A DNA stretch of 64,000 nucleotides. Source: Eledone cirrhosa (Eukaryota). The position numbers were made by a program, and so were the translations under genes. Where the stretch lies: the NCBI GenBank assembly GCA_964016885.1, contig OZ024743.1, positions 64,046,001 to 64,110,000 on the forward strand. Reading direction: 5' to 3'. This document shows, one piece after another, positions 5,379-61,405 of this stretch; positions within the stretch are counted from its first letter, which is position 1, and every line of letters begins with the position of its first letter. The notes beneath the pieces were generated by a model. That model worked only from the letters and a program-made list of their open reading frames with translations, did not search any database and was not told the origin of the DNA.

Positions 5379-5539
5379 TAGTATATCTACCAACATCTGT
5401 ATACAGATGCATACCTATGCTAGCAAATATATATGTTTTGTCTTAGTAACTTTGTGGTTCTATGCAAGGGGATGCAGAACAATTATATGAAAGACGTAAA
5501 TAAGAAAGTTATGAAAATTGACTTACTTACTAAAATTTC

Positions 5540-5620
5540 ACTCCAACTAATTAGTTTCTGTAAGGGGATAAGTATGGTTACGGAGCGTATCCACAGAGAA
5601 ACCTTACGTCATCAGGGAGT
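5540..5620 (-). ncRNA. Type I hammerhead ribozyme (GUU site)
   Basis: Reverse-complement copy of 5938-6018. Confidence 0.85.
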
Positions 5621-5937
5621 CTATTCTCAGCTAAGCTTCCAGGCAATGCGAGGACACTGGGAACTTATATAAAAATAATTCAGTGTTGAGCAAAACGTGC
5701 CGAAATTACTACTATGATTAATAGTAGTGGCTAGGCCCTGTCTTAATAGCACCCACTCCTCACTGATTAACCTCAGTGTCACGTGATTGATTCTTTTGAA
5801 TTTGCCACTTGACCAAGTAGGCAGTGAATTTTCCAATGTCTTGGAATCTAGTCCCGCTCGCTTTTTTCCATCCACTGAATTATTTTTATATAAGTTCCCA
5901 GTGTCCTCGCATTGCCTGGAAGCTTAGCTGAGAATAG

Positions 5938-6018
5938 ACTCCCTGATGACGTAAGGTTTCTCTGTGGATACGCTCCGTAACCATATTTATCCCCTTACAG
6001 AAACTAATTAGTTGGAGT
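5938..6018 (+). ncRNA. Type I hammerhead ribozyme with extended stem II (GUU site)
   Basis: actcc CTGATGA c-gtaagg...ccttac-a GAAA ctaattag TT ggagt. Confidence 0.85.
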
Positions 6019-6091
6019 GAAATATTAGTAAGTAAGTCAATTTTCATAACTTTCTTATTTACGTCTTTCATATAATTGTTCTGCATCCCCT

Positions 6092-6703
6092 AGCAATGAC
6101 TGTCCCTAGCAAGTCTGGTTCGGTTTCAAGACGATCGAGGATGTCCTGGAACACTTGCATGCGTCGACCCTTCTGGTCATCGTTCAGAAGTTTTGGCACC
6201 ATCTTCGCACAGACTTTCCGCATGTCCAAATCTTCAGTGAGAATCTTCCAGACGCTGTCCCGATTCATACCCAGCTCATTTGCCATCAGTCGAACAGTCA
6301 GTCGACGATCGCTACGCACCATCTGCCTGACGCGCTCAACGTTGACCTCAGTTGTTGAGGGCTTTCTGCTCCTGGGGTCATCTTGCACCACTCAAAAACA
6401 CGTGAGCGTGACATCTTCTCATTTCCATACACTTGCTGCAGCAATCCCAGTGCTTCTGACGGAGTTTTCCCCAACCAGAAACTTCAAGTTTGTTCGTTGC
6501 TCTGTGCTCATTGCTTGACGACCTGAAACAGAGGACATGTATATAAAATTATGAAGAAAAAAGTTTTATCGCTGCAGAGAGCTAAGATTACAGTTACATA
6601 CTCCAGGGGGATTACTTTGAAGGAGAAAACACTTAGTGTAAAGTTTGGGTGATTGAAATAAATCTATTGTGACATCAGTCCTGGAACTTTTCTGACACAC
6701 CTC

Positions 6704-6824: not shown

Positions 6825-6960
6825 AGGGTGTGGTAAGATACCAGATAGATCATAATGCACCATAGTACTCGATACTTGGGGTAGTAGAATGGGTAATATG
6901 AAAAGATTCAGGGCCCCGACGGCTGAGCTCCGGCCGTTTCGACAGCTAGATCCAACCTAA
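6820..6960 (-). mobile_element. PLE-type terminus with 3' half of a hammerhead
   Basis: Homologous to 27261-27395; minus strand reads GAAA cggc..gccg TC. Confidence 0.55.
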
Positions 6961-8039: not shown

Positions 8040-8725
8040 AGGTGAACAGAAGTCCCTCAAATTTATATTTATGTGAATGGACTTCTACTGAAGCAGTTAG
8101 AGAAGTTCAAGTATCTCGGGGCCGTGTTCGCGAGTGATGGAATGCAGGAGGCTGAATTAAGTGCAAGAATTGCAAAAGCTGATGCAGTAATGCGCCAGCC
8201 TCAGCATTCAGCAATCAGAAGAAGGAGGGTAGGTGTAAAAGCCAAACTAGCTGTCTTCCAGGTATTCCTGCCAACTCTTACCGAGGATCATGAATCTTGA
8301 GTAATGACCAAAAGAATACAATTGCAAGTAAAAGCGGCAGACATAGGGTTCCTCCGAAGGGTCTTTGGAGTAATGTTACTCGATAAAGTGCATAGCTCAG
8401 AGACCAGAGAGTCACTCCTGGTAGAGCCACTACTTCTCCAAATTGAGAGATCACAACTCGGATATTATGAACATTTGGTTCATAATATCCGAGTTGTGAT
8501 CTCAGTAAAGAATCGCTGGACACATTTTATAGGCAAAACCAACCGGCATGAGATCCAGAGGTAGACCCTGAGCAAGATAGTTGGATAACATCCATGAGCT
8601 TGGCTGGTCACGCCTTGTGATCCAACTGGATCAATTGGAGATGTTTGCTTCTGACAGACTCGCTGGAAGGAGTGTTTGAGAAGGACTCTGCCCCCATGAC
8701 CCTCTCAGAAATAAGTGGGCAAAGA
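8040..8725 (+). mobile_element. RTE-clade (Expander/Rex3-like) LINE 3' fragment
   Basis: QLEKFKYLGAVFASDG..RIAKA..EPLLLQIERSQL; the same family is inverted at 36405-36890. Confidence 0.8.
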
Positions 8726-10286: not shown

Positions 10287-10404
10287 TAGATATAGATATA
10301 TATAGTAATAATAATAAATTTGAAGACTAAAATCCAAAGAGGGCTCGATATTTGCTTAAACTTTAATCTGTTATTTTAATATATATTTATATATATATAT
10401 ATAG

Positions 10405-10522
10405 GAACCAGTAAGACCCCGACAGCTGAGCTCAAGCCGTTTCGACGGCTAATTCTGGACGGCTAATTCCAGAATTAGCCGTCGAAACGGCTTGAGCTCA
10501 TCTGTCGGGGTCTTACTGGTTC
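10405..10522. repeat. Palindrome of a PLE-type terminus, centred in hammerhead stem II
   Basis: gaaccagtaagaccccgacag..gaattagccgtcGAAAcggc..ggggtcttactggttc. Confidence 0.85.
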
Positions 10523-11194: not shown

Positions 11195-12207
11195 CTTAAC
11201 TTGAACCACAACTGCAATAGTATGGACATATGATGGATATAGAAAAGGATAGTTGTATAAAGAAATGCAGAAAAATCTTAATGGTTTGGACACCTGGAAG
11301 AGGCAGACCCAGGAAGACTTGGGATGAGGTTCTGAAGACCAAACTTAAGAAGCTAAAAATTACAACAGAGATGACAAAGGACCACAATACATGGTGACAT
11401 GCTGCACTAGAGAAAACCTGCCTACTAGCATAAAATGTGATCTGATCCATCCCCATGCTTCCAATTCACTAGTACTCTTTTGTAGCTATCCCCACCATCA
11501 CTATACACCACATTCATGCCCCCTCTGCTATCACTTTTAGTATCTATTCTCACCTTTCCTATACACCATTTCTAAAATCCCAACACACCAGTGAGGTCAC
11601 CCCTTCCTTCCTACTCATCATCCTGTCAAATCCCTTCACAATTCTGACACACCCATAACATCATACTTATCTTCCTTCTCTCCTCCATCCTCCCATATGG
11701 CAGAGAGGGCTCTTCAGTTGAGATAACGACCACCAACCTCTCTAGTGCTGGTGCCATGAAAATGCACCCAGTACACTCTCTAAAGTCGTAGTGCTGGTTC
11801 CATGATAAAATGCATCCAGTACACTCAGTAAAGTAGTAGTGATTGTATCATTATAAAATGCACCAAGTGCCTTTTATAAAGTGGTAGTGTTGGGGCCTTG
11901 ATAAAATGTACCCAGCCAACTCTGTAAACTGGTAGCGCTGGTGCCATAATAAATGCATCCAGTCCAGGACTTTTCAGATGCATTAAGGTTGGGACAAAAA
12001 TACACTCAGTACATTCTGTAAGTGGTTGGCATTAGGAAGGACATCCAGTTGTAGAAACCATGTGAAAACTGGAACATGTCTGATAGAAACATGTTTTTCC
12101 AGCCCATCTGGGAGGACAGTAATTAAGTATTTTATCACCCACCCAAACCATGTCAACATGGAAGAGCTGCCACTAAAACCTGATATCCAATGATGATGAT
12201 AATGATA
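11195..12207 (+). mobile_element. RTE LINE 3' end with tandemly expanded UTR module and (GAT)n tail
   Basis: YGHMMD..GRPRKTWDEV; about 45-bp repeats at 11740-12020; ggcattaggaaggacatccag motif. Confidence 0.7.
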
Positions 12208-14100: not shown

Positions 14101-14231
14101 CTGGTTATATATATAAGTAGATAAATGAAAAACAAAATTGTAAGAATTCTTTAAATAACATTTTATCTAGTCCCACTATCAGGGTTTCACTGAAGACACC
14201 AACAGAAAAAAATATGATTACATAAGCAGAT

Positions 14232-14690
14232 GCACCCAGTCCACACTGTAAAGTGGTCATGTAGGTGTCATAACAAAAATGCCCAGTCCACACTGTAAAG
14301 TGGTCATGTAGGTGTCACGAAAAAAAGCACCCAGTCCACACTGTAAAGTGGTCATGTAGGTGTCACGACAAAAAGCACCCAGTCCACACTGTAAAGTGGT
14401 CATGTAGGTGTCACGACAAAAAGCACCCAGTCCACACTGTAAAGTGGTCATGTAGGTGTCACGACAAAAAGCACCCAGTCCACACTCTGAAGTGGTCATG
14501 TAGGTGTCACGACAAAAATGCCCAGTCCACACTGTAAAGTGGTCATGTAGGTGTCAACGAAAAAAAGCGCTCAATCCACACTGTAAAGTGATCATTTAGG
14601 TGTCATGATAAAAAGTGCCCAGTCCACACTGTAAAGTGGTCATGTAGGTATCACAACAAAAAGCACCCAGTACACACTGTAAATGTGGTT
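14232..14690 (+). repeat. 48-bp minisatellite (about 10 units) derived from the RTE 3' UTR
   Basis: Unit aaagcacccagtccacactgtaaagtggtcatgtaggtgtcacgacaa runs into an RTE tail ending in (GAT)n. Confidence 0.9.
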
Positions 14691-15149
14691 GACATTCAGC
14701 CATAGAAACCAAACCAGAAACAGTTCAAGAGCAAGACATGACCATCTAATTTAGCATGTCTCACAATGGGATAACTCATCTTACCCATGCTAGCATGGAA
14801 AATGGACATTAAATGATGATGATGATGATGATAATGATGATGACTGCATATCATGATCATCATCATCATGTGTGTATATATATATATATATATGCATACA
14901 CACATGTGTATATGTATATATACACATACACATACACACACAAGAATATATATATATATATATATATATATTTTCATTTCATTTTACGTCCACTTTTCCC
15001 TGCTTGCAAGGGTGGGACGTGAACTGATTCTGGCTTAATTTCTACAGCTGGATGCCCTTCCTAACACCAACCTCATTAACAGTGAGTGCTGGGTGCTTTT
15101 TTGCCGTGGCACCTCCACGACCACTTTGCAGTGGAATGATAGGGACCCC

Positions 15150-16440: not shown

Positions 16441-16692
16441 GATATATTTGAAAAAAGAAAAAGAATGACTTTACTTGTAGTTCTAAACAATTTAATTATA
16501 TAATATTAGAATCTTACAGTTTTGATTTGTAGATCTATTAAGTTCTTTGTTAACTTTGGTGGGGGATTTTTTAAAGATTCCTGGTTAACCAAAGTTAACA
16601 AAGAACTTACTAGATTTGCAAAACAAAATTGTAAAATTATAATATCATAAAATTAAAATGTGAAGTCATTCTTTTCCCTTTTTCAAATATAT
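16441..16692. repeat. Diverged inverted repeat
   Basis: aagttctttgttaactttggt / accaaagttaacaaagaactt and atatttgaaaaa / tttttcaaatat. Confidence 0.7.
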
Positions 16693-16847: not shown

Positions 16848-17570
16848 ATATCAAAGGTATATATTGAGTTAGAAACTCAAAATAGTCTCCTACAATTAAA
16901 TAGCTCAAAGAAAAAGGTTTTTCTGAGCCGTGTAATATAATTGAATATAAAAGAGAGATAAACACAGATAAAAACATATATGTGTTCAAATCGAAAGGGA
17001 CCAGATTCGCTAGGGTGAAAAAAATACTAACTATTAACAATAGGGTTTGCCAGACTCAATTTAAAATAATAAATCAAGAAAATAAATACAAACAGATATT
17101 GGGCAACTGCCAGACACCCAGACAACTTATGGTAGGCTGTTTCGCAATTTTAGCGAAGGGAATTACCAATTCGTTGCTCATCAGTGGGTGTAAAATTAGT
17201 AAACTCTTCACTTCTAAGTATCTCAGAATACTGAATAGTGTGTGTATATATAAAATAACGCACATGGCATCAGAACCTAGCGTGTCTCATAAAGGTACGC
17301 TACTAAAAATAACAGCCAAGTTTACTCGACATTTAAATTAGCTCTACCAAATTGAAGGAGCCGACTATATCAAAGGTATATATTGAGTTAGAAACTCAAA
17401 ATAGTCTCTTACAATTAAATAGCTCTATTGTTAATAGTTAGTATTTTTTTCACACTAGCAAATCTGGTCCCTTACGATTTGAACACATGTATGTTTTTAT
17501 CTGTGTTTATCTCTCTTTTATATTCAATTATATTACACGGCTCAGAAAAACCTTTTTCTTTGAGCTATTT
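16848..17570 (-). mobile_element. Hammerhead-bearing module: direct repeat (519-bp period) plus inverted copy
   Basis: 16848-16906 = 17367-17425; 17425-17570 is the reverse complement of 16898-17043. Confidence 0.8.
17114..17191 (-). ncRNA. Canonical type I hammerhead ribozyme (GUC site)
   Basis: acaccca CTGATGA gcaa...ttgc GAAA cagc...gttg TC tgggtgt. Confidence 0.92.
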
Positions 17571-26850: not shown

Positions 26851-27184
26851 TATATTAATAAAAGGAATTTCAACTTTGTCTGATTTACTCGTTTTATTTA
26901 CATTCCTTTAAAATTTATAATGGTATTAGAATGAAATAGTATGGTAGAATATTAAATGTTAAGTGTTAATTGAACAAGTACTTTCATGCTTTCGCAATCT
27001 TCAGGTTCATATTGTGTGGTGACAGTCAAGTTTGCAATTTTCAACTGAAAATTGCAAACTTGACTGTCAATTAACACTTAACATTTAATATTCTACCATA
27101 CTATTTCATTCTAATACCATTATAAATGTTAAAGGATTGTAAATAAAACGAGTAAATCAGACAAAGTTGGAATTCCTTTTATTA

Positions 27185-27225: not shown

Positions 27226-27260
27226 CATATATATATATACATATATATATATACATATAT

Positions 27261-27456
27261 AACGAAGGAAATGTGGTAAGGAACCAGGTGGACCATAACG
27301 CACCAAAGTACTCAATACTTGAGGTAGTAGAGTGGGTAATAGGAACCAGTAAGACCCCGACAGCTGAGCTCAAGCCGTTTCGACGGCTAATTCTCAATTC
27401 TGAATTAGCCGTCGAAACGGCTTGAGCTCAGCTGTCGGGGTCTTACTGGTTCCTAT
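27261..27456. repeat. PLE-type terminus with palindrome 27339-27456
   Basis: Same family and nearly the same turning point as 10405-10522. Confidence 0.85.
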
Positions 27457-27968: not shown

Positions 27969-28426
<458 letters not shown>

Positions 28427-39496: not shown

Positions 39497-40870
39497 ATAG
39501 TGATATCATGAGCCAGTGATATCAGGAGTCCGTCGGGCAGCGATATCATGTGTCCTTGAGCCAGTGATACCAAGTTTCCTTGAACCAGTGATATCATGTG
39601 TTCTTGAGCCAGCAATATGTGCCATTGAGCCAGTGATATCATGTGTCCTTGAGCCAGTGATATCATCTGTCCTTGAGCCAGTGATATCATGTGTCCTTGA
39701 GCCAGCAGCGATATCATGTGTTCTTCAGCCAGTGATATCATGTGTCCATGATCCAGCAATATCATGTGTCCTTCAGCCAGTGATATCATCTGTCTCTAAG
39801 CCAGTGATATCATGTATGCTTGAGCCAGTGATATCATGTGTCCTTCAGCCAGTGGTATCATGTGTCCCTGAGCCAGTGATATCACCTGTCCTTGAGACAG
39901 TGGTATCATGTGTCCTTGAGCCAGTTGTATCATGTGTCCTTGAGTCAGTGATATCATGTGTCCTTGAGCCAGCGTTATCTTGTGTCCTTTAGCCAGTGAT
40001 ATCATGTGTCCTTTAGCCAGTGATATCATCTGTTCTTGAACCAGTGATATCAAGTGTTCTTGAGTCAATGATAGCATGTGTCCTTGAGCCAGTGATATAA
40101 TGTGTCCTTGAGCCAGTGATTTCATGTGTCCCTAAGCCAGTGATATCATGTGTCCTTGAGCCAGTGATATCATGTGTCCTTGAGCCAGCAATATCATGAC
40201 CTTGAGCCAGTGATATCATGTGTCATTGGGCCAGTGATATCATCTATCCTTGAGCCAGTGATATCATCTGTCCTTGAGCCAATGATATCATGTGTTCTTG
40301 AGCCAGTGATATCATGTGTCCCTAAGCCAATGATATCATGTGTCCTTGAGCCAGTGATATCATGTTTCCCTAAGCCATGATATCATGTGTCCCTAAGCCA
40401 GTAATCATGTGTCCCTGAGACAGTGGTATCATGTGTCCTTGAGCCAGTGATATCATGTGTCCTTGAGTCAGTGATATTATGTGTCCTTAAGCCTGTGATA
40501 TCATGTGTCCTTGAGCTGGGTATATTATGTGTCCTTGAGCCAGTGATATTATGTGCCCTTCAGCCAGTAATATCATTTGTCCTTGAGCGAGTGATATCAT
40601 GTGTCCTTCAGTCAGTGATATCATGTGTCCTTAAGCCTGTGATATCATCTGTCCTTGGGCCTGTGATATCATCTGTCCTTGAGCCTGTGATATCATGTGT
40701 TCATGAGCCTGTGATATCATGTGTCCTTGAGCCTGTGATATCATGTGTCCTTGAATCAGTGATATCAGGTGACTTTGGGCCAGTGATATTATGTGTTCTT
40801 GAGCCAGCAATATCATGTGTCCTTGAGCCAGCGCTATAATGTCCTTGTGTAAGTGATATCATGTGTCCTT
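39497..40870 (+). repeat. 24-bp minisatellite (about 55 units) expanded inside a family B SINE
   Basis: Unit gagccagtgatatcatgtgtcctt. Confidence 0.95.
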
Positions 40871-42920: not shown

Positions 42921-43037
42921 CCCTACCCCTCTTGCGACTGCTGGACTTGAAAACTGCCGAGAATATATAGTTTTCTCGTCTGTGTAATTGAGGTGATTAA
43001 TCTCATTTACATATGAAGCATAAGTTGGCTCAACTTA

Positions 43038-43205
43038 TAATAAAAAAGAAAATTTTGCTTTGAGCATAGCTTTATACAATATGTATTAAAGTTTTTAGGA
43101 AGCCGTAGCTATGTAAAGACCGGTCTTTACATAGCTACAGCTTCCTAAAAACTTCAATACATATTGTATAAAGCTATGCTCAAAGCGAAATTTTCTCTTT
43201 TTTAT
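43038..43205. repeat. Spacerless palindrome centred on accggt (43121/43122)
   Basis: About 84-bp arms with a few mismatches. Confidence 0.92.
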
Positions 43206-46720: not shown

Positions 46721-47505
46721 CAGTACAACACTGGTACCAACTAAATGAATACACTCTCAGTACAACACTGGTACCAACTAAATGAATACACTCTCAGTAC
46801 AACACTGGTACCAACTTAACGAATACACCCCCCCCCCAGTACAACACTGGTACCAACTTAACGAATACACTCCCCTAGTACAGCACTGGTACCAACTAAA
46901 TGAATACACTCCCTCAGTATATCACTGGTACCAACTTAACGAATACACTTCTCCAGTACAACACTGGTACCAACTTAATGAATACACTTCCCCGGTACAA
47001 CACTGGTACCAAGTTAATGACTACACTCCCCAGTACATCACTGGTACCAACTTAACCAATACACTTCCCTCAGTATATCACTGTTACCAACTTAACCCCC
47101 CCTTCCCCCAGTACAACACTGGTACCAACTTAACGAATACACTTCCTCAGTACATCACTGGTACCAACTTAACGAATACACTTCTCCAGTACATCACTGG
47201 TACCAAGTTAACGAATACACTTCCTCAGTACAACACTGGTACCAAGTTAACGAATACACTTCCTCAGTACATCACTGGTACCAACTTAACGAATACACTT
47301 GCCTCAGTATATCACTGTTACCAACTTAACCCCCCACCCCACCCCACCCCCACCCAGTATAACACTGGTACCAACTTAACGAATACACTTCCCCAGTACA
47401 TCACTGGTACTAATACATTTCTCCAGTGCATCACTGGTACTAATACACTGACCCTAGTGCATCACTGGTACTAATACACTGACCTCAGTACATCACTGGT
47501 ACTGC
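46721..47505 (+). repeat. About 36-bp minisatellite
   Basis: Unit cagtacaacactggtaccaacttaacgaatacacttcc; explains ORF 46782-47474. Confidence 0.92.
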
Positions 47506-48453: not shown

Positions 48454-48688
48454 ATATATATATATATATATATGTCGTTTCTGAATTTGTTTAGCAAGAT
48501 TCTTTATCTGAAATCGTGTGTTGAAACCGATATTGTTATACTTTGGGAGGGTCATGTTGCCAATAAGAAACACACGCACCAGTTGCTTTCACTTCAATTT
48601 AATTTATTATATATTTATAAATTTACAAATTTATAAATTTCTGGTTGGTTGGTTGGTTCCACAACCAGATAGTTGTTTATATATATAT

Positions 48689-48733
48689 AGTCATAGTTCT
48701 TTCGTCACACACTCTGTGACCTCTTCAGTGACT
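48689..48733 (-). ncRNA. Minimal type I hammerhead ribozyme
   Basis: Mirror of 48839-48883. Confidence 0.85.
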
Positions 48734-48838
48734 GGGGATTTCTTTCTTCGTTTCTGTGCCTTTCCTTTCTTCTATCCTACGCCATTTTGGCGTAGGATAG
48801 AAGAAAGGAAAGGCACAGAAACGAAGAAAGAAATCCCC

Positions 48839-48883
48839 AGTCACTGAAGAGGTCACAGAGTGTGTGACGAAAGAACTATGACT
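48839..48883 (+). ncRNA. Minimal type I hammerhead ribozyme (CUA site)
   Basis: agtca CTGAAGA g-gtcaca-gagtg-tgtgac GAAA gaac TA tgact. Confidence 0.85.
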
Positions 48884-49169
48884 ATATATATATAAACAAC
48901 TATCTGGTTGTGGAACCAACCAACCAACCAGAAATTTATAAATTTGTAAATTTATAAATATATAATAAATTAAATTGAAGTGAAAGCAACTGGTGCGTGT
49001 GTTTCTTATTGGCAACATGACCCTCCCAAAGTATAACAATATATATATATATGTATATATGTATATATATATATATATATTCGTAGGAAAATGGCATCAG
49101 GAAGCTGTTAAAACAGCAAAATTGCTCATTTTTCTACAAATTCTAATACCTTTGCGTTTCAAAACTCAA

Positions 49170-50082: not shown

Positions 50083-50223
50083 TAAAATAAAATAAAATAA
50101 ATAAGTCAAATGTTTAAAATTTGGCTTCGTTTATTACTGCTATATATGTCACCGAAATATATATAGCAGTAATAAACGAAGCCAAATTTTAAACATTTGA
50201 CCTATTTATTTTATTTTATTTTA
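50083..50223. repeat. Palindrome with a hammerhead 3' half at the turn
   Basis: actgctatatat-gtcaccgaa-atatatagcagt. Confidence 0.88.
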
Positions 50224-50751: not shown

Positions 50752-50753
<2 letters not shown>

Positions 50754-50952
50754 TAAAGTTTAAGCAAAGAATCGCTGCTTTTACCCTTAACAGGATCTTC
50801 TGAACATCCCGTTAAGGGTGAAAGCAGCGATTTTTTGCTTAAACTTTAATCTGTTATTTTAATAAATATTTGCTCTACGGTTCTTATAAATTTCATATAT
50901 ATTTATCCTTATCGAGCCCTCTTTAGATTTTAGTCTTCAAATTTATTATTAT

Positions 50953-55594: not shown

Positions 55595-55960
55595 GCATCC
55601 CTGACACCACCTGTTATTCCCCGTTAAACTGAGACCTTACTGACACAACCCTATCATTCCCCATTAAACTGAGACCATACTGATACCTCTTTGTCATTCC
55701 CCATTAAAATGAAACCTCACTGACACCCCTGTCATTCCTCATTAAACTGATACCTCACTGACACCAACCTGTTGTTTCCCATTAAACTGATACCTCACTT
55801 GCATAACCCTGTCATTTCCCATTAAACTGAGACCATACTGATACCTTTTTGTCATTCCCCATTAAACTGATACCTCACTGACACCAACCTGTCATTTCCC
55901 ATTAAACTGAGATCTTACTGATACCACTATAAAACTGAAACATCACTGACACCTCTCTGT
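55595..55960 (+). repeat. About 42-bp minisatellite
   Basis: Unit ctgtcattccccattaaactgagacc..actgacacc. Confidence 0.85.
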
Positions 55961-57140
55961 TGTTAACTTTACCATTAAACAATTCTATCTTCAAATCTGA
56001 GAGGTTGTTACAATGATGGCCACCAAATCTCAACATCAGTCATTGAATACATAATTAGTTTGAGTTTCTTCCTCCAACTAATTCACATATTTCATGCTTT
56101 CTTCCTTAACCTCTTGCTACCATATTTCTAACGAAAATAATCAAGAATTTTGGGATATTTAGCAATGTAACTAACTTTCATGTTATTAAGCTGATATTTG
56201 AAACATAACTTTAAAAAAAGTTTTTACATACAATCCTGATGGAAAGTTTTGGGTTAAATATAAACACTTTAACTCATTTATTATATATTTCTGATGAATA
56301 ACAATGCCTATTACTTTCTAATAATTTTGAAATTAATCTATAATTTTGTGGGATTTAGTATTATAACTAACTTTCTTATTATTAACTGGCATTTGGAACA
56401 TAACTTAACAAAGGTTCTTATATAAAATTATTATAGAAGATTTCTATCAAAAATGTTAAACAATGAGGAAGAGCCCTGCAAGGTGGAAGGGCTGTTGCAG
56501 TGGGTGTCACTGGCTAGTGTCCATGGAAAGCCTTTGTAGTTTAGTCCCCGGGGTGCAACAAAAACACTACCCTGACCTAGACGTAGTTTCTGTTGCAATC
56601 TCCCCTTCCTTCTTTCTTTCTTCCATGGCTCAATAGTCCTTGCACTTTCCCTCCCTTTCTTCTCATTTATGGCATTTTATAGTCCTTTCCTTTACTTTCC
56701 TATACAGTTAGATCTGCCCTTCTTTACCCTGTAGCAAGCTACTTTCCTTTGGTGCATTGATACCCTTTCCGTATGTTGTTTGGCTGAGTTGAGCCAATCG
56801 CTATCAGCGTATGGATGTGTATCTCAACTTCCGCCCAAATGGAGAAATTCCCGCTTCTTTTAATAAACTAATTCTCTTTGCGCATGAACTGCGGTAAGAT
56901 AAACACCTATTCTTCTTTCGCTCTGCAAACATCATTCCAATATGTAACCACAAAACATTACCGCGGCCTGGCTTCTCACTTCAGCCACTGGACCGTGTCT
57001 TCTCTTACAGATCTTAATTTGTTTGTTCATTTCTTTTGGCATGCCAACCAAGCTTAATACAGCTCTTCTCACCTTAAACATTGTTAATAAATTCTGTTAC
57101 AACGAACTACAAATTGTCGTCAACATTATTTTATCTTACA

Positions 57141-59495: not shown

Positions 59496-61405
59496 AATAG
59501 AAAACGAAAAATCAGTGATGCATCTGAACTCAATTTATTGTGTGTTACAATTGTTTCGCCGGTGGACAGCTCGAGACGCGATCATTGTGTGGACCTGTCT
59601 GATTCTGGACCCGCAGGTTCGACGGACACGTCTAATGATTTCGGAGCATATTCTCTCACTGGGGTATCTGACCCTCTGGGCCAGTACCGTCAAAAACTTC
59701 ATCCTCTTCGTGTGTCCTGTGATTGGCTGCTGGTTGTCTGCGTCATCATAATTCTGACCACAGGTACCAGTCTGCTGACCATCAGGGCGTTGTCTGTCCC
59801 ATGTCTGCTACACTTCAATAAATCACTGCTGTGTTTGGTAGTTCACACATCCACACGCGCACTCACAGACACAGACACACACACACACACACACACATAA
59901 TCACATAGATAACGAGAGTCGTACGCATAGACTCCCACTATACACACACACTTAAGGAGAACATATAAACATATAAACATATAAACATACTCATACATGC
60001 ATCCAGAGAGGCACGTACATACACAGACACATGCCCACATGCCTATATACATCAACATGCACACACACACATGTGTGCATACACATGCATACGCGTATAT
60101 ATACTCGTACACAAAAACACGTACAGACATATACATAGACCCCCCCCCCCTTCACCCACGCACACACACATACACACACGTACCCATATACATATATACA
60201 CATGTATACACGCACAGATACACACTCGCTCGCAAACACACATATATACACACAAAGAAGCCCTTTCCCTACAGGGGGGGGGGGGGCTTGTACACACACA
60301 CACACACTGGCTCATATAGACTCCGACAAATATGCGCATATTCAGATACACACCCACGCACGCATAAAAAAATATATATATATATATACATAAATAGAAT
60401 ATACACACAAAGTCATATACAGATACACAATGGGCCATACATGAAAGGATGCATCTTGTTATAAACATGTACATGCATAGAAAATACATGCGTGCGTGGG
60501 TGTGTATGTGAATATTAGCATATTTGTCGGAGTGTATATGAGCCAGTGTGTGTGTGTGTGTGTGTGTACAAGCCCCCCTGTAGGGAAAGGGCTTGTTTGT
60601 GTGTATATATGTGTGTTTACGAGTGAGTGTGTATCTGTGCGTGTATATATGTATATATGTATATGGGTACGTGTGTGTATGTGTGTGTGCGTGAGTGGAG
60701 GGGGGGGGTCAATGTATATGTCTGTACGTGTTTCTGTGTACGGGTATGCACACATGTGTGTGTGCATGTTGATGTATATAGGCATGTGGGCATGTGTCTG
60801 TGTATGTACGTGCCTCTCTGGATGCATGTATGAGTATGTTTATATGTTTATATGTTTATATGTTCTCCTTAAGTGTGTGTGTATAGTGGGAGTCTATGCG
60901 TACGACTCTCGTCATCTATGTGATTATGTGTGTGTGTGTGTGTGTGTGTCTGTGTCTGTGAGTGCGTGTGTGGATGTGTGAACTACCAAACACAGCAGTG
61001 ATTTATTGAAGTGTAGCAGACATGGGACAGACAACGCCCTGATGGTCAGCAGACTGGTACCTGTGGTCAGAATTATGATGACGCAGACAACCAGCGGCCA
61101 ATCACAGGACACGCGAAGAGGATGAAGTTTTTGACGGTACTGGCCCAGAGGGTCAGATACCCCAGTGAGAGAATATGCTCCGAAATCATTAGACGTGTCC
61201 GTCGAACCTGCGGGTCCAGAATCAGACAGGTCCACACAATGATCGCGTCTCGAGCTGTCCACCGGCGAAACAATTGTAACACACAATAAAATGAGTTCAG
61301 ATGCATCACTGATTTTTCGTTTTCTATTCTATCATACTCTGCTCTGTAAGAGCATAGAGTGGTCAACCGGCATACCGCCTATGGAAGCATCTTAGCTACC
61401 GTCAA

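What the first reader, a model, noticed from the sequence alone, without database searches (positions are those of the whole stretch)
10405..10522. Palindromes that turn inside the ribozyme (snap-back at stem II)
Seen: here and independently at 27339-27456, the right arm reads gaattagccgtc GAAA cgg..tg TC ggggtc (stem II 3' strand, GAAA, stem III, GUC). The CUGANGA half is replaced by the inverted copy. The centres differ slightly (an extra gacggctaattc here, tcaattct there), indicating separate events. Inference: nascent cDNA folds at the stem II hairpin, self-primes and copies back, which would explain how PLE inverted termini arise.
Basis: partly seen in the sequence, partly recalled or inferred. 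Interest (0 to 1): 0.72.

Follow-up and report, generated by a model that had tools for sequence, protein, structure and literature searches.

The report
Twin-primed Penelope stubs, not snap-back
These two short mirror-image repeats are among about 17,000 head-to-head stubs of a Penelope-like jumping gene in this genome; their arms stop at one fixed spot inside the element's predicted ribozyme, likely because both cut DNA ends each copy the same RNA to its start and are then joined, rather than one copy folding back, which would explain how this class makes inverted ends.

Summary
Both palindromes are real (55-nt arms, 54/55 and 55/55 matched; different centres). They belong to a Penelope-like element with Hydra-clade protein motifs; 17,459 tight palindromes match one pattern genome-wide. 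Intact copies (6,041 motif hits) fold as a type I hammerhead, but the core is U3-A8 (75 of 100 listed), never CUGANGA (0 of 100). Snap-back at stem II is not supported. All 102 arms of 51 sampled palindromes stop 8-37 nt short of the 5' strand of any hairpin needed to fold. In 16 of 76 tail-selected inversions neither arm contains the other, which one copied-back cDNA cannot give. Arms share subfamily variants (46 of 46, 25 expected), and one arm usually carries an 83-nt tail. Best reading: both ends of a cut (TA)n prime cDNA at two sites on one RNA, both run off a fixed 5' end, and the ends are joined, sometimes with short templated inserts like the two here. That the end is a transcription start is inferred; no RNA data. 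A second family in the window turns 61-72 nt upstream of its ribozyme. The scan reached this reading before on other DNA of this genome.

The parts
10401..10460 (-). Site 1 left arm: short-type arm, reference 150-209 (3' part of loop II, stem II 3' strand, GAAA, stem III, GUC, stem I 3' strand), ending in (TA)n
   Evidence: 100% over 60 nt to natural copy L033
10458..10469 (+). Site 1 centre: 12-nt templated repeat of 10444-10455; 7 nt are not covered by either arm
   Evidence: sequence; junction parse
10468..10522 (+). Site 1 right arm, reference 151-205; GAAA at 10484-10487, GUC at 10504-10506; one mismatch at 10501
   Evidence: 98.2% over 55 nt
27256..27338 (-). Site 2 tail: 83-nt extension present on one arm only (reference 210-292), ending in (TA)n
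   Evidence: 27256-27394, 99.3% over 139 nt
27339..27394 (-). Site 2 left (tailed) arm, reference 154-209
27395..27401 (+). Site 2 centre: 7-nt insert holding a 6-nt direct repeat of 27389-27394
   Evidence: junction parse
27402..27456 (+). Site 2 right (short) arm, reference 155-209; GAAA at 27414-27417, GUC at 27434-27436; possible 13-nt target duplication in the flanking microsatellite (weak)
48530..49042 (.). Control, second family: 255-nt arms, 3-nt spacer, canonical CUGANGA hammerhead motif in each arm (48844 plus, 48728 minus), tail on the left arm; the turn lies about 60 nt upstream of the ribozyme

Best explanation
The two palindromes are head-to-head stubs of a very abundant Penelope-like retrotransposon whose arms stop at one fixed point inside the long loop II of a predicted hammerhead; they likely form by twin priming, both ends of a cut (TA)n target each copying the same RNA until it runs out at its likely transcription start, after which the two cDNA ends would be joined. 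Shown: family, ORF, hammerhead fold of intact copies, two fixed 3' ends (reference 209 and 292), pile-up of 5' ends at 143-156, arms from one subfamily, many pairs in which neither arm contains the other. Inferred: (a) the endonuclease cuts both strands of (TA)n; (b) one end primes at 209, the other at 292; (c) the RT from 292 must displace the first cDNA and sometimes stops early; (d) the RNA begins at A149/G150, so it lacks the 5' half of the ribozyme and is not cut in cis; (e) the two cDNA 3' ends anneal through 0-4 nt of microhomology, sometimes after short templated additions like the 7-nt extras at both window sites, and each templates the other's second strand.
For: 43 of 51 palindromes pair one tailed arm with one short arm; 69 of 77 inverted partners of tail-selected arms end at 209. 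Which arm reaches further 5' is even: 18 tailed, 17 short, 8 ties of 43 (12 vs 11 at 3 nt or more). In 102 arms selected by the tail only, 76 were given an inverted partner; in 16 the tailed arm starts 10 nt or more 3' of the short arm, so neither contains the other (17 listed, L167 dropped because both its arms are tailed), against 2 the other way, the direction expected if the second RT must displace the first cDNA. Some pairs overlap by a few bases or not at all (L016, L038, L045, L200, L219). Arms agree at subfamily sites 46 of 46 at reference 158 and 183 (25.1 and 24.6 expected if independent; 5 of 51 dropped for indels). 57 of 76 partner arms start at 143-156 and none before 140. Solo copies without an inverted partner also start there (L036, L091, L192). 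The Inr-like word at 147-152 is kept across subfamilies (Inr consensus recalled). Family 2 shows one tailed plus one short arm in 7 of 7 inverted pairs and 8 of 30 loci start within 15 nt upstream of one ATG, 61-72 nt before its ribozyme (counted by eye). In vitro, a Poseidon PLE cuts and extends both strands, starts RT at two internal sites that define the tail, and does not need ribozyme cleavage (PMC11167929).
Against: No RNA evidence for the start site. The TATA-like word 29 nt upstream in the L033 subfamily is not conserved in others. The cap signature (extra G before 149/150) is unresolved: G in 8 of 19 arms starting at 149 and 5 of 20 at 150, and the partner arm can supply that G. The commonest centres leave 4-6 unpaired bases (15 of 51), a size that suits a small hairpin loop. 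In 14 of 76 pairs the short arm lies 3-9 nt inside the tailed arm and 28 start within 2 nt; these, and both window sites, fit a copy-back equally well. A weak hairpin (133-153, -1.7 kcal/mol) ends near the stop zone. The samples come from the first 25 Mb of one contig. Shared arm variants fit a copy-back as well as one RNA read twice.
Confidence: 0.63

Rival explanations
1. One reading: nascent cDNA folds at the native stem II hairpin, self-primes and copies back.
For: The turn lies inside the stem II region of a real predicted hammerhead; arms share subfamily variants; both window sites have one arm inside the other.
Against: 0 of 102 arms and 0 of 76 partner arms reach the 5' strand of stem II; no centre keeps the native loop; 16 of 76 pairs have neither arm inside the other; family 2 turns outside its ribozyme.
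Confidence: 0.03
2. One cDNA runs off the RNA 5' end and folds back on itself through one or two untemplated bases (or an antisense RNA self-primes, as proposed in PMC3846280); this makes a large share of the palindromes, twin priming the rest.
For: 15 of 51 centres leave 4-6 unpaired bases and 10 of 51 carry inserts of 5 nt or more, some being short inverted copies of the arm; 14 plus 28 of 76 pairs are compatible; proposed in print.
Against: The short arm is the 5'-most as often as the tailed one (17 vs 18), as expected if the two ends are equivalent cDNAs; a copy-back gives no reason to end at 209, which is also the end of solo first-strand copies; 22 of 51 centres leave 2 or fewer unpaired bases.
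Confidence: 0.14
3. Twin priming is right, but the fixed stop is an RT block (the inner hairpin of loop II or bound protein) or an RNA processing site, not a transcription start.
For: Inner hairpin ends at 153, close to the stop zone; many arms start at 153-155 (37 of 102 at 153 or 155); TATA-like word not conserved; no RNA data.
Against: The hairpin is weak (-1.7 kcal/mol) and the modal 5'-most starts (149, 150) lie inside it, not at its base; stronger stems III and II are read through; 9 of 102 tailed arms pass the site freely; family 2 also has a fixed stop zone, 31 nt or less after an NRF-1-like word (motif recalled).
Confidence: 0.15
4. The centres were shaped after insertion, by cruciform or hairpin processing of longer inverted insertions.
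For: Kilobase-long inverted copies exist (L031-L035).
Against: Solo copies start at the same point; deletions have no reason to stop at one base in thousands of loci; arms differ at 78 of 2,208 sites, so they are not being homogenised.
Confidence: 0.04

Closest known systems
Hydra clade of C-terminal endonuclease Penelope-like elements (Craig et al. 2021, PMC8557442; passages, section 11, first hits of a supplement search)
   Same: Single ORF, RT then GIY-YIG; RW[K/R], DKT, CxCX5C linker, CxxC and CxH, no GxKF/Y; (TA)n target; hammerhead in the pLTR; unit about 3.1 kb.
   Different: RWR in place of RWK; core is U3-A8 or C3-A8, not canonical; full stem III and a 37-nt loop II; about 17,000 mini-palindromes; no tree was built.
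EN+ PLE insertions with inverted pLTR and one-sided tail (Adineta vaga Pen2a/Pen3, PMC3846280, passages; D. virilis Penelope, PMC2377424, passages)
   Same: Head-to-head inverted copy, palindrome at the junction, tail on one arm only.
   Different: Tail is 83 nt, not 30-40; junction fixed to a 14-nt zone; that paper explains the junction by self-priming on an antisense template, which the neither-contains pairs here do not fit.
Poseidon PAc of Anolis, in vitro (Frangieh et al. 2024, PMC11167929; parts 1-2 of 4)
   Same: Both strands cut and extended; two internal RT start sites bracket the tail; ribozyme cleavage dispensable.
   Different: The parts read do not address the inverted junction or where cDNA ends; their priming had no homology to target, whereas ends here merge with (TA)n.
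LINE-1 twin priming (Ostertag and Kazazian 2001; recalled, not read)
   Same: Two target ends prime on one RNA and give a 5' inversion joined by microhomology.
   Different: L1 segments usually abut; here they usually overlap fully, giving a palindrome, and priming sites are two fixed positions.
U3-A8 hammerhead variant of Schistosoma mansoni PLEs (Cervera and de la Pena 2014, PMC4209133; passages)
   Same: U3-A8 in place of C3-G8 in a pLTR hammerhead.
   Different: That motif is minimal; this one has a 5-6 bp stem III and could fold as a monomer.

Membership tests
EN+ Penelope-like element | Single ORF with RT core and C-terminal GIY-YIG | tested here: met
   719 codons from first Met in natural copy L033; RT motifs at 320 and 415, GIY-YIG-like at 658; nearest Atlas clusters 0.96-0.99 with HTH_animal, GIY-YIG, RVT_1 on part of members. 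Pfam gave 0 hits at E<=1 and PDB sequences none significant.
EN+ Penelope-like element | Partial tandem with pLTR, inverted 5'-truncated copy, one-sided tail | tested here: met
   L033 pLTR-ORF-pLTR plus inverted copy; L031-L035; 43 of 51 tailed/short pairs.
Hydra clade | RWK, DKT, CxCX5C, CxxC and CxH, no GxKF/Y | tested here: met
   RWR at 104 (K to R), DKT 184, CxCX5C 639, CxxC 737, CxH 765, no GxKF/Y.
Hydra clade | (TA)n insertion preference | tested here: met
   Flanks of 43 palindromes printed are TA-rich on at least one side in all.
Hydra clade | Placement in the RT phylogeny | not tested
   No reference proteins were fetched.
Hydra clade | Canonical hammerhead core | tested here: not met
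   0 of 100 listed cores are C3-G8; 75 U3-A8, 23 C3-A8, 2 U3-G8 (counted by eye; the pattern fixed U4, G5, A6, A9). Described, not clade-defining, in the paper; the Hydra label rests on protein motifs and stays 'Hydra-like' until a tree is built.
Type I hammerhead ribozyme | Three stems around the core, GAAA, NUH site | tested here: met
   Unconstrained MFE of reference 95-200 gives stems I, II, III (-23.2 kcal/mol); N7 varies among G, U, C, A. Rfam gave no hammerhead hit in the window, which holds only half-motifs of this family.
Type I hammerhead ribozyme | 3-8 core pair | tested here: inconclusive
   U3-A8 pair in 75 of 100; mismatch in 25 of 100.
Type I hammerhead ribozyme | Self-cleavage | not testable with these tools
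   Genomic trace inconclusive: 4 of 102 tailed arms start at 189-192 against 12 in 167-188.
Twin-primed insertion (LINE-1 type) | Second segment not derivable from the first; both from one RNA | tested here: met
   16 of 76 neither-contains pairs; 46 of 46 subfamily concordance.
Twin-primed insertion (LINE-1 type) | Target-site duplication | tested here: inconclusive
   Hidden by (TA)n; 4 of 43 gave a 12-13 nt match containing G or C, all weak.

The most novel reading that the evidence does not exclude
This element's transcription start sits inside loop II of its own hammerhead, so the RNA made from that promoter carries only half a ribozyme and escapes self-cleavage while read-through copies carry a whole one; a dimeric RT-endonuclease copies that one RNA twice, from two fixed sites onto both ends of a (TA)n break, and joins the two run-off cDNAs. 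PLE inverted termini would then be a genomic record of the RNA's capped 5' end and show that the sense strand is the template.
Probability: 0.4. Interest if true: 0.72.

Novelty: new member of a known kind. Interest (0 to 1): 0.5.

Why it matters
How Penelope-like elements make their inverted repeats is named as an open problem (PMC8557442), and the explanation I found in print is self-priming on an antisense template (PMC3846280). Thousands of minimal insertions with sharply fixed ends separate the models from sequence alone and define a roughly 150-nt RNA and a (TA)n target for an in vitro test. The structure itself is known. Searches for a published twin-priming account of PLE inversions found none in the held library (0 papers with both 'Penelope' and 'twin-priming'; 1 unrelated review for 'head-to-head'); subscription papers and supplements of preprints are not covered.

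Tried and rejected
Rfam scan of the window: only microRNA-like hairpin noise, no hammerhead. Pfam and PDB sequence searches with the ORF: nothing significant. Sequencing runs: no RNA holder listed; no reads were laid. DNA search of G000 with family 2 returned nothing because common words are skipped; a motif search worked. TATA box as support for the start site: dropped, not conserved across subfamilies. Cap-derived extra G: unresolved. Splice acceptor at the AG of 149-150: rejected, since 39 of 102 arms start at 149 or 150 and keep the AG while 4 start at 151. Starts at the ribozyme cut site: no clear excess; single cases L152, L155, L180, L117, L047. Target duplications: masked by microsatellite. 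First parse had a mis-set variant position and was replaced; one search misplaced L156, L174, L214 because stem III is self-complementary, corrected; five copies shown starting at 137 really continue upstream across a 2-nt indel, L152 was scored solo though it has a short partner, and the two opposite-direction cases (L012, L169) look like alignment artefacts. A genome-wide tally of arm classes was not obtained, so those counts rest on samples of 51 and 102. PMC9977147 passages held nothing relevant. Sequence look-up in earlier findings was empty.

Full report
Observation. Site 1 holds a 12-nt repeat at the centre; site 2 a 7-nt insert with a 6-nt repeat. At site 2 the left arm continues for 83 nt beyond the palindrome. 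A 19-mer of the arm has 37,277 exact hits in the 3.0-Gb genome G000 and a tight palindrome pattern 17,459, with 0 in reversed controls.

The element. Natural copy L033 is a pLTR-ORF-pLTR unit of about 3.1 kb with an inverted partial copy beside it; I number the pLTR on it (reference 1 = L033:3701). Its ORF (719 codons from the first Met) has RT motifs, a C-terminal GIY-YIG-like motif and the RW[K/R], DKT, CxCX5C, CxxC and CxH motifs that Craig et al. list for the Hydra clade. Pfam and PDB sequence searches found nothing; the Atlas gave clusters with GIY-YIG, RVT_1 and HTH_animal on part of their members. No tree was built.

The ribozyme. The upstream half exists in 6,041 motif hits. The RNA 95-200 folds without constraint into a type I hammerhead: stem I 101-105/190-194, core 106-112, stem II 113-121/159-166 with a long loop, GAAA 167-170, stem III, cut after 189. 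Of the 100 cores listed, 75 are U3-A8, 23 C3-A8, 2 U3-G8 and none CUGANGA (by eye; the pattern fixed four core bases). U3-A8 is a known PLE variant (PMC4209133, passages). Activity is untested.

Where the arms turn. In 51 palindromes (49 from the places listed plus the two window sites), all 102 arms begin at 145-158, with modes at 149, 150, 153 and 155. None includes the 5' strand of stem II or of the weak inner hairpin, so no native hairpin could have formed in the cDNA; folding of cDNAs ending at 140-153 shows unpaired 3' ends. That sample was chosen for a close centre, so I drew a second one by the tail alone (29,483 hits; 102 distinct arms parsed, including a few bystanders): 52 of 102 tailed arms and 57 of 76 partners start at 143-156, and no partner before 140. 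Nine tailed arms run past the core.

One cDNA or two. A copy-back makes the second arm a subset of the first. Instead 43 of 51 palindromes have one tailed arm (ending near 289-292) and one short arm (near 209), and the arm reaching further 5' is the tailed one in 18 and the short one in 17. In the tail sample, 16 of 76 pairs have the tailed arm starting 10 nt or more downstream of the short arm's start, so each arm holds sequence the other lacks; 2 go the other way (L167 dropped from 17). Some do not overlap (L016, L038). The arms still come from one subfamily: 46 of 46 agree at two diagnostic sites where about 25 would if independent (5 dropped for indels). This is what two cDNAs primed on one RNA give, the one from the far site sometimes failing to displace the other. 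Against: 14 of 76 pairs have the short arm just inside the tailed one and 28 start within 2 nt; these and both window sites fit either model, and 15 of 51 centres leave 4-6 unpaired bases.

Why that point. I infer it is the RNA 5' end. For: solo copies begin there too; an Inr-like word at 147-152 is kept across subfamilies (consensus recalled); stronger stems are read through. Against or open: the TATA-like word at -29 is not conserved, the cap-G signal is ambiguous, and no RNA run was listed. An RNA starting at 149 lacks the 5' half of the ribozyme, which would explain why arms cross the cut site intact.

Control. The 513-nt palindrome at 48530-49042 belongs to another family (3,442 hits). 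Its hammerhead motif is canonical and lies inside the arms; 8 of 30 loci begin in a 15-nt zone 61-72 nt upstream of the core, 20 run through, 2 are other; 7 of 7 inverted pairs are one tailed plus one short arm (by eye). Turning at the ribozyme is therefore not general.

Known work. Inverted pLTR, tail and (TA)n bias are described, and the origin of the inverted structures is called unresolved (PMC8557442; passages, section 11 and first supplement hits). Self-priming on an antisense template was proposed (PMC3846280, passages). In vitro both strands are cut and extended from two internal sites (PMC11167929, parts 1-2 of 4). An internal pLTR promoter is shown for D. virilis Penelope (PMC2377424, passages). 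L1 twin priming and templated inserts in end joining are recalled. Searches found no paper stating twin priming for PLEs in the held library.

Earlier scan notes. I stated this reading before seeing them; searches then showed the same conclusion reached on other pieces of this genome and in other genomes. They are not independent support; they prompted the cut-site check, which was inconclusive.

Verdict. Observation confirmed; ribozyme and PLE identity supported with a variant core; snap-back at stem II not supported. Most likely twin priming with run-off at the RNA start (0.63). A new member of a known kind whose copies make an open mechanistic question testable; interest 0.5.

Noticed in passing
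window 48530-49042 (tail to about 48474); loci L121-L150: Second PLE-type family with canonical hammerhead motif, about 60-nt one-sided tail, 4,423-bp tandem unit (L147-L149) and a stop zone about 16-31 nt after an NRF-1-like word (motif recalled).
   Followed up: partly
listing; L094, L110, L111: 23 of 100 listed cores carry a C3-A8 mismatch yet belong to a widespread subfamily, which would fit ribozyme activity being dispensable.
   Followed up: no
L174, L156 (C1 near 5.754 and 1.022 Mb): Junctions that use the self-complementary stem III as microhomology; they look like a native hairpin turn, but the tailed arm cannot be a copy of the short one.
   Followed up: partly
L152, L155, L180, L117, L047: A few arms begin at reference 189-192, the predicted ribozyme cut; no clear excess over background in 102 arms.
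   Followed up: partly
L082, L169, L020: Poly(T)/(A) runs of up to about 20 nt at the junction or just before the 5' start.
   Followed up: no
window 5463-6095, 8447-8503, 16514-16634, 16898-17570, 26860-27180, 27973-28268, 43037-43205, 50084-50222, 50752-50850, 59499-61325: At least ten further inverted repeats, several bounded by (TA)n and likely from other PLE families.
   Followed up: no
window 6829-6948 (minus strand): Older, 81% identical solo copy of the same family, reference 159-276.
   Followed up: no
window 1742, 12250, 38092, 44665, 45022, 51374: Six copies of a dispersed 74-nt SINE-like repeat (family D20).
   Followed up: no
window 14221-14731 and 11754-11976; 39497-40600; 46750-47413; 55609-55965: Tandem arrays with periods of 48, 24, 39 and 40 nt.
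   Followed up: no
L033 3879-6236: The frame is open from inside the pLTR, 67 codons before the first Met; whether an upstream non-AUG start is used is unknown.
   Followed up: no
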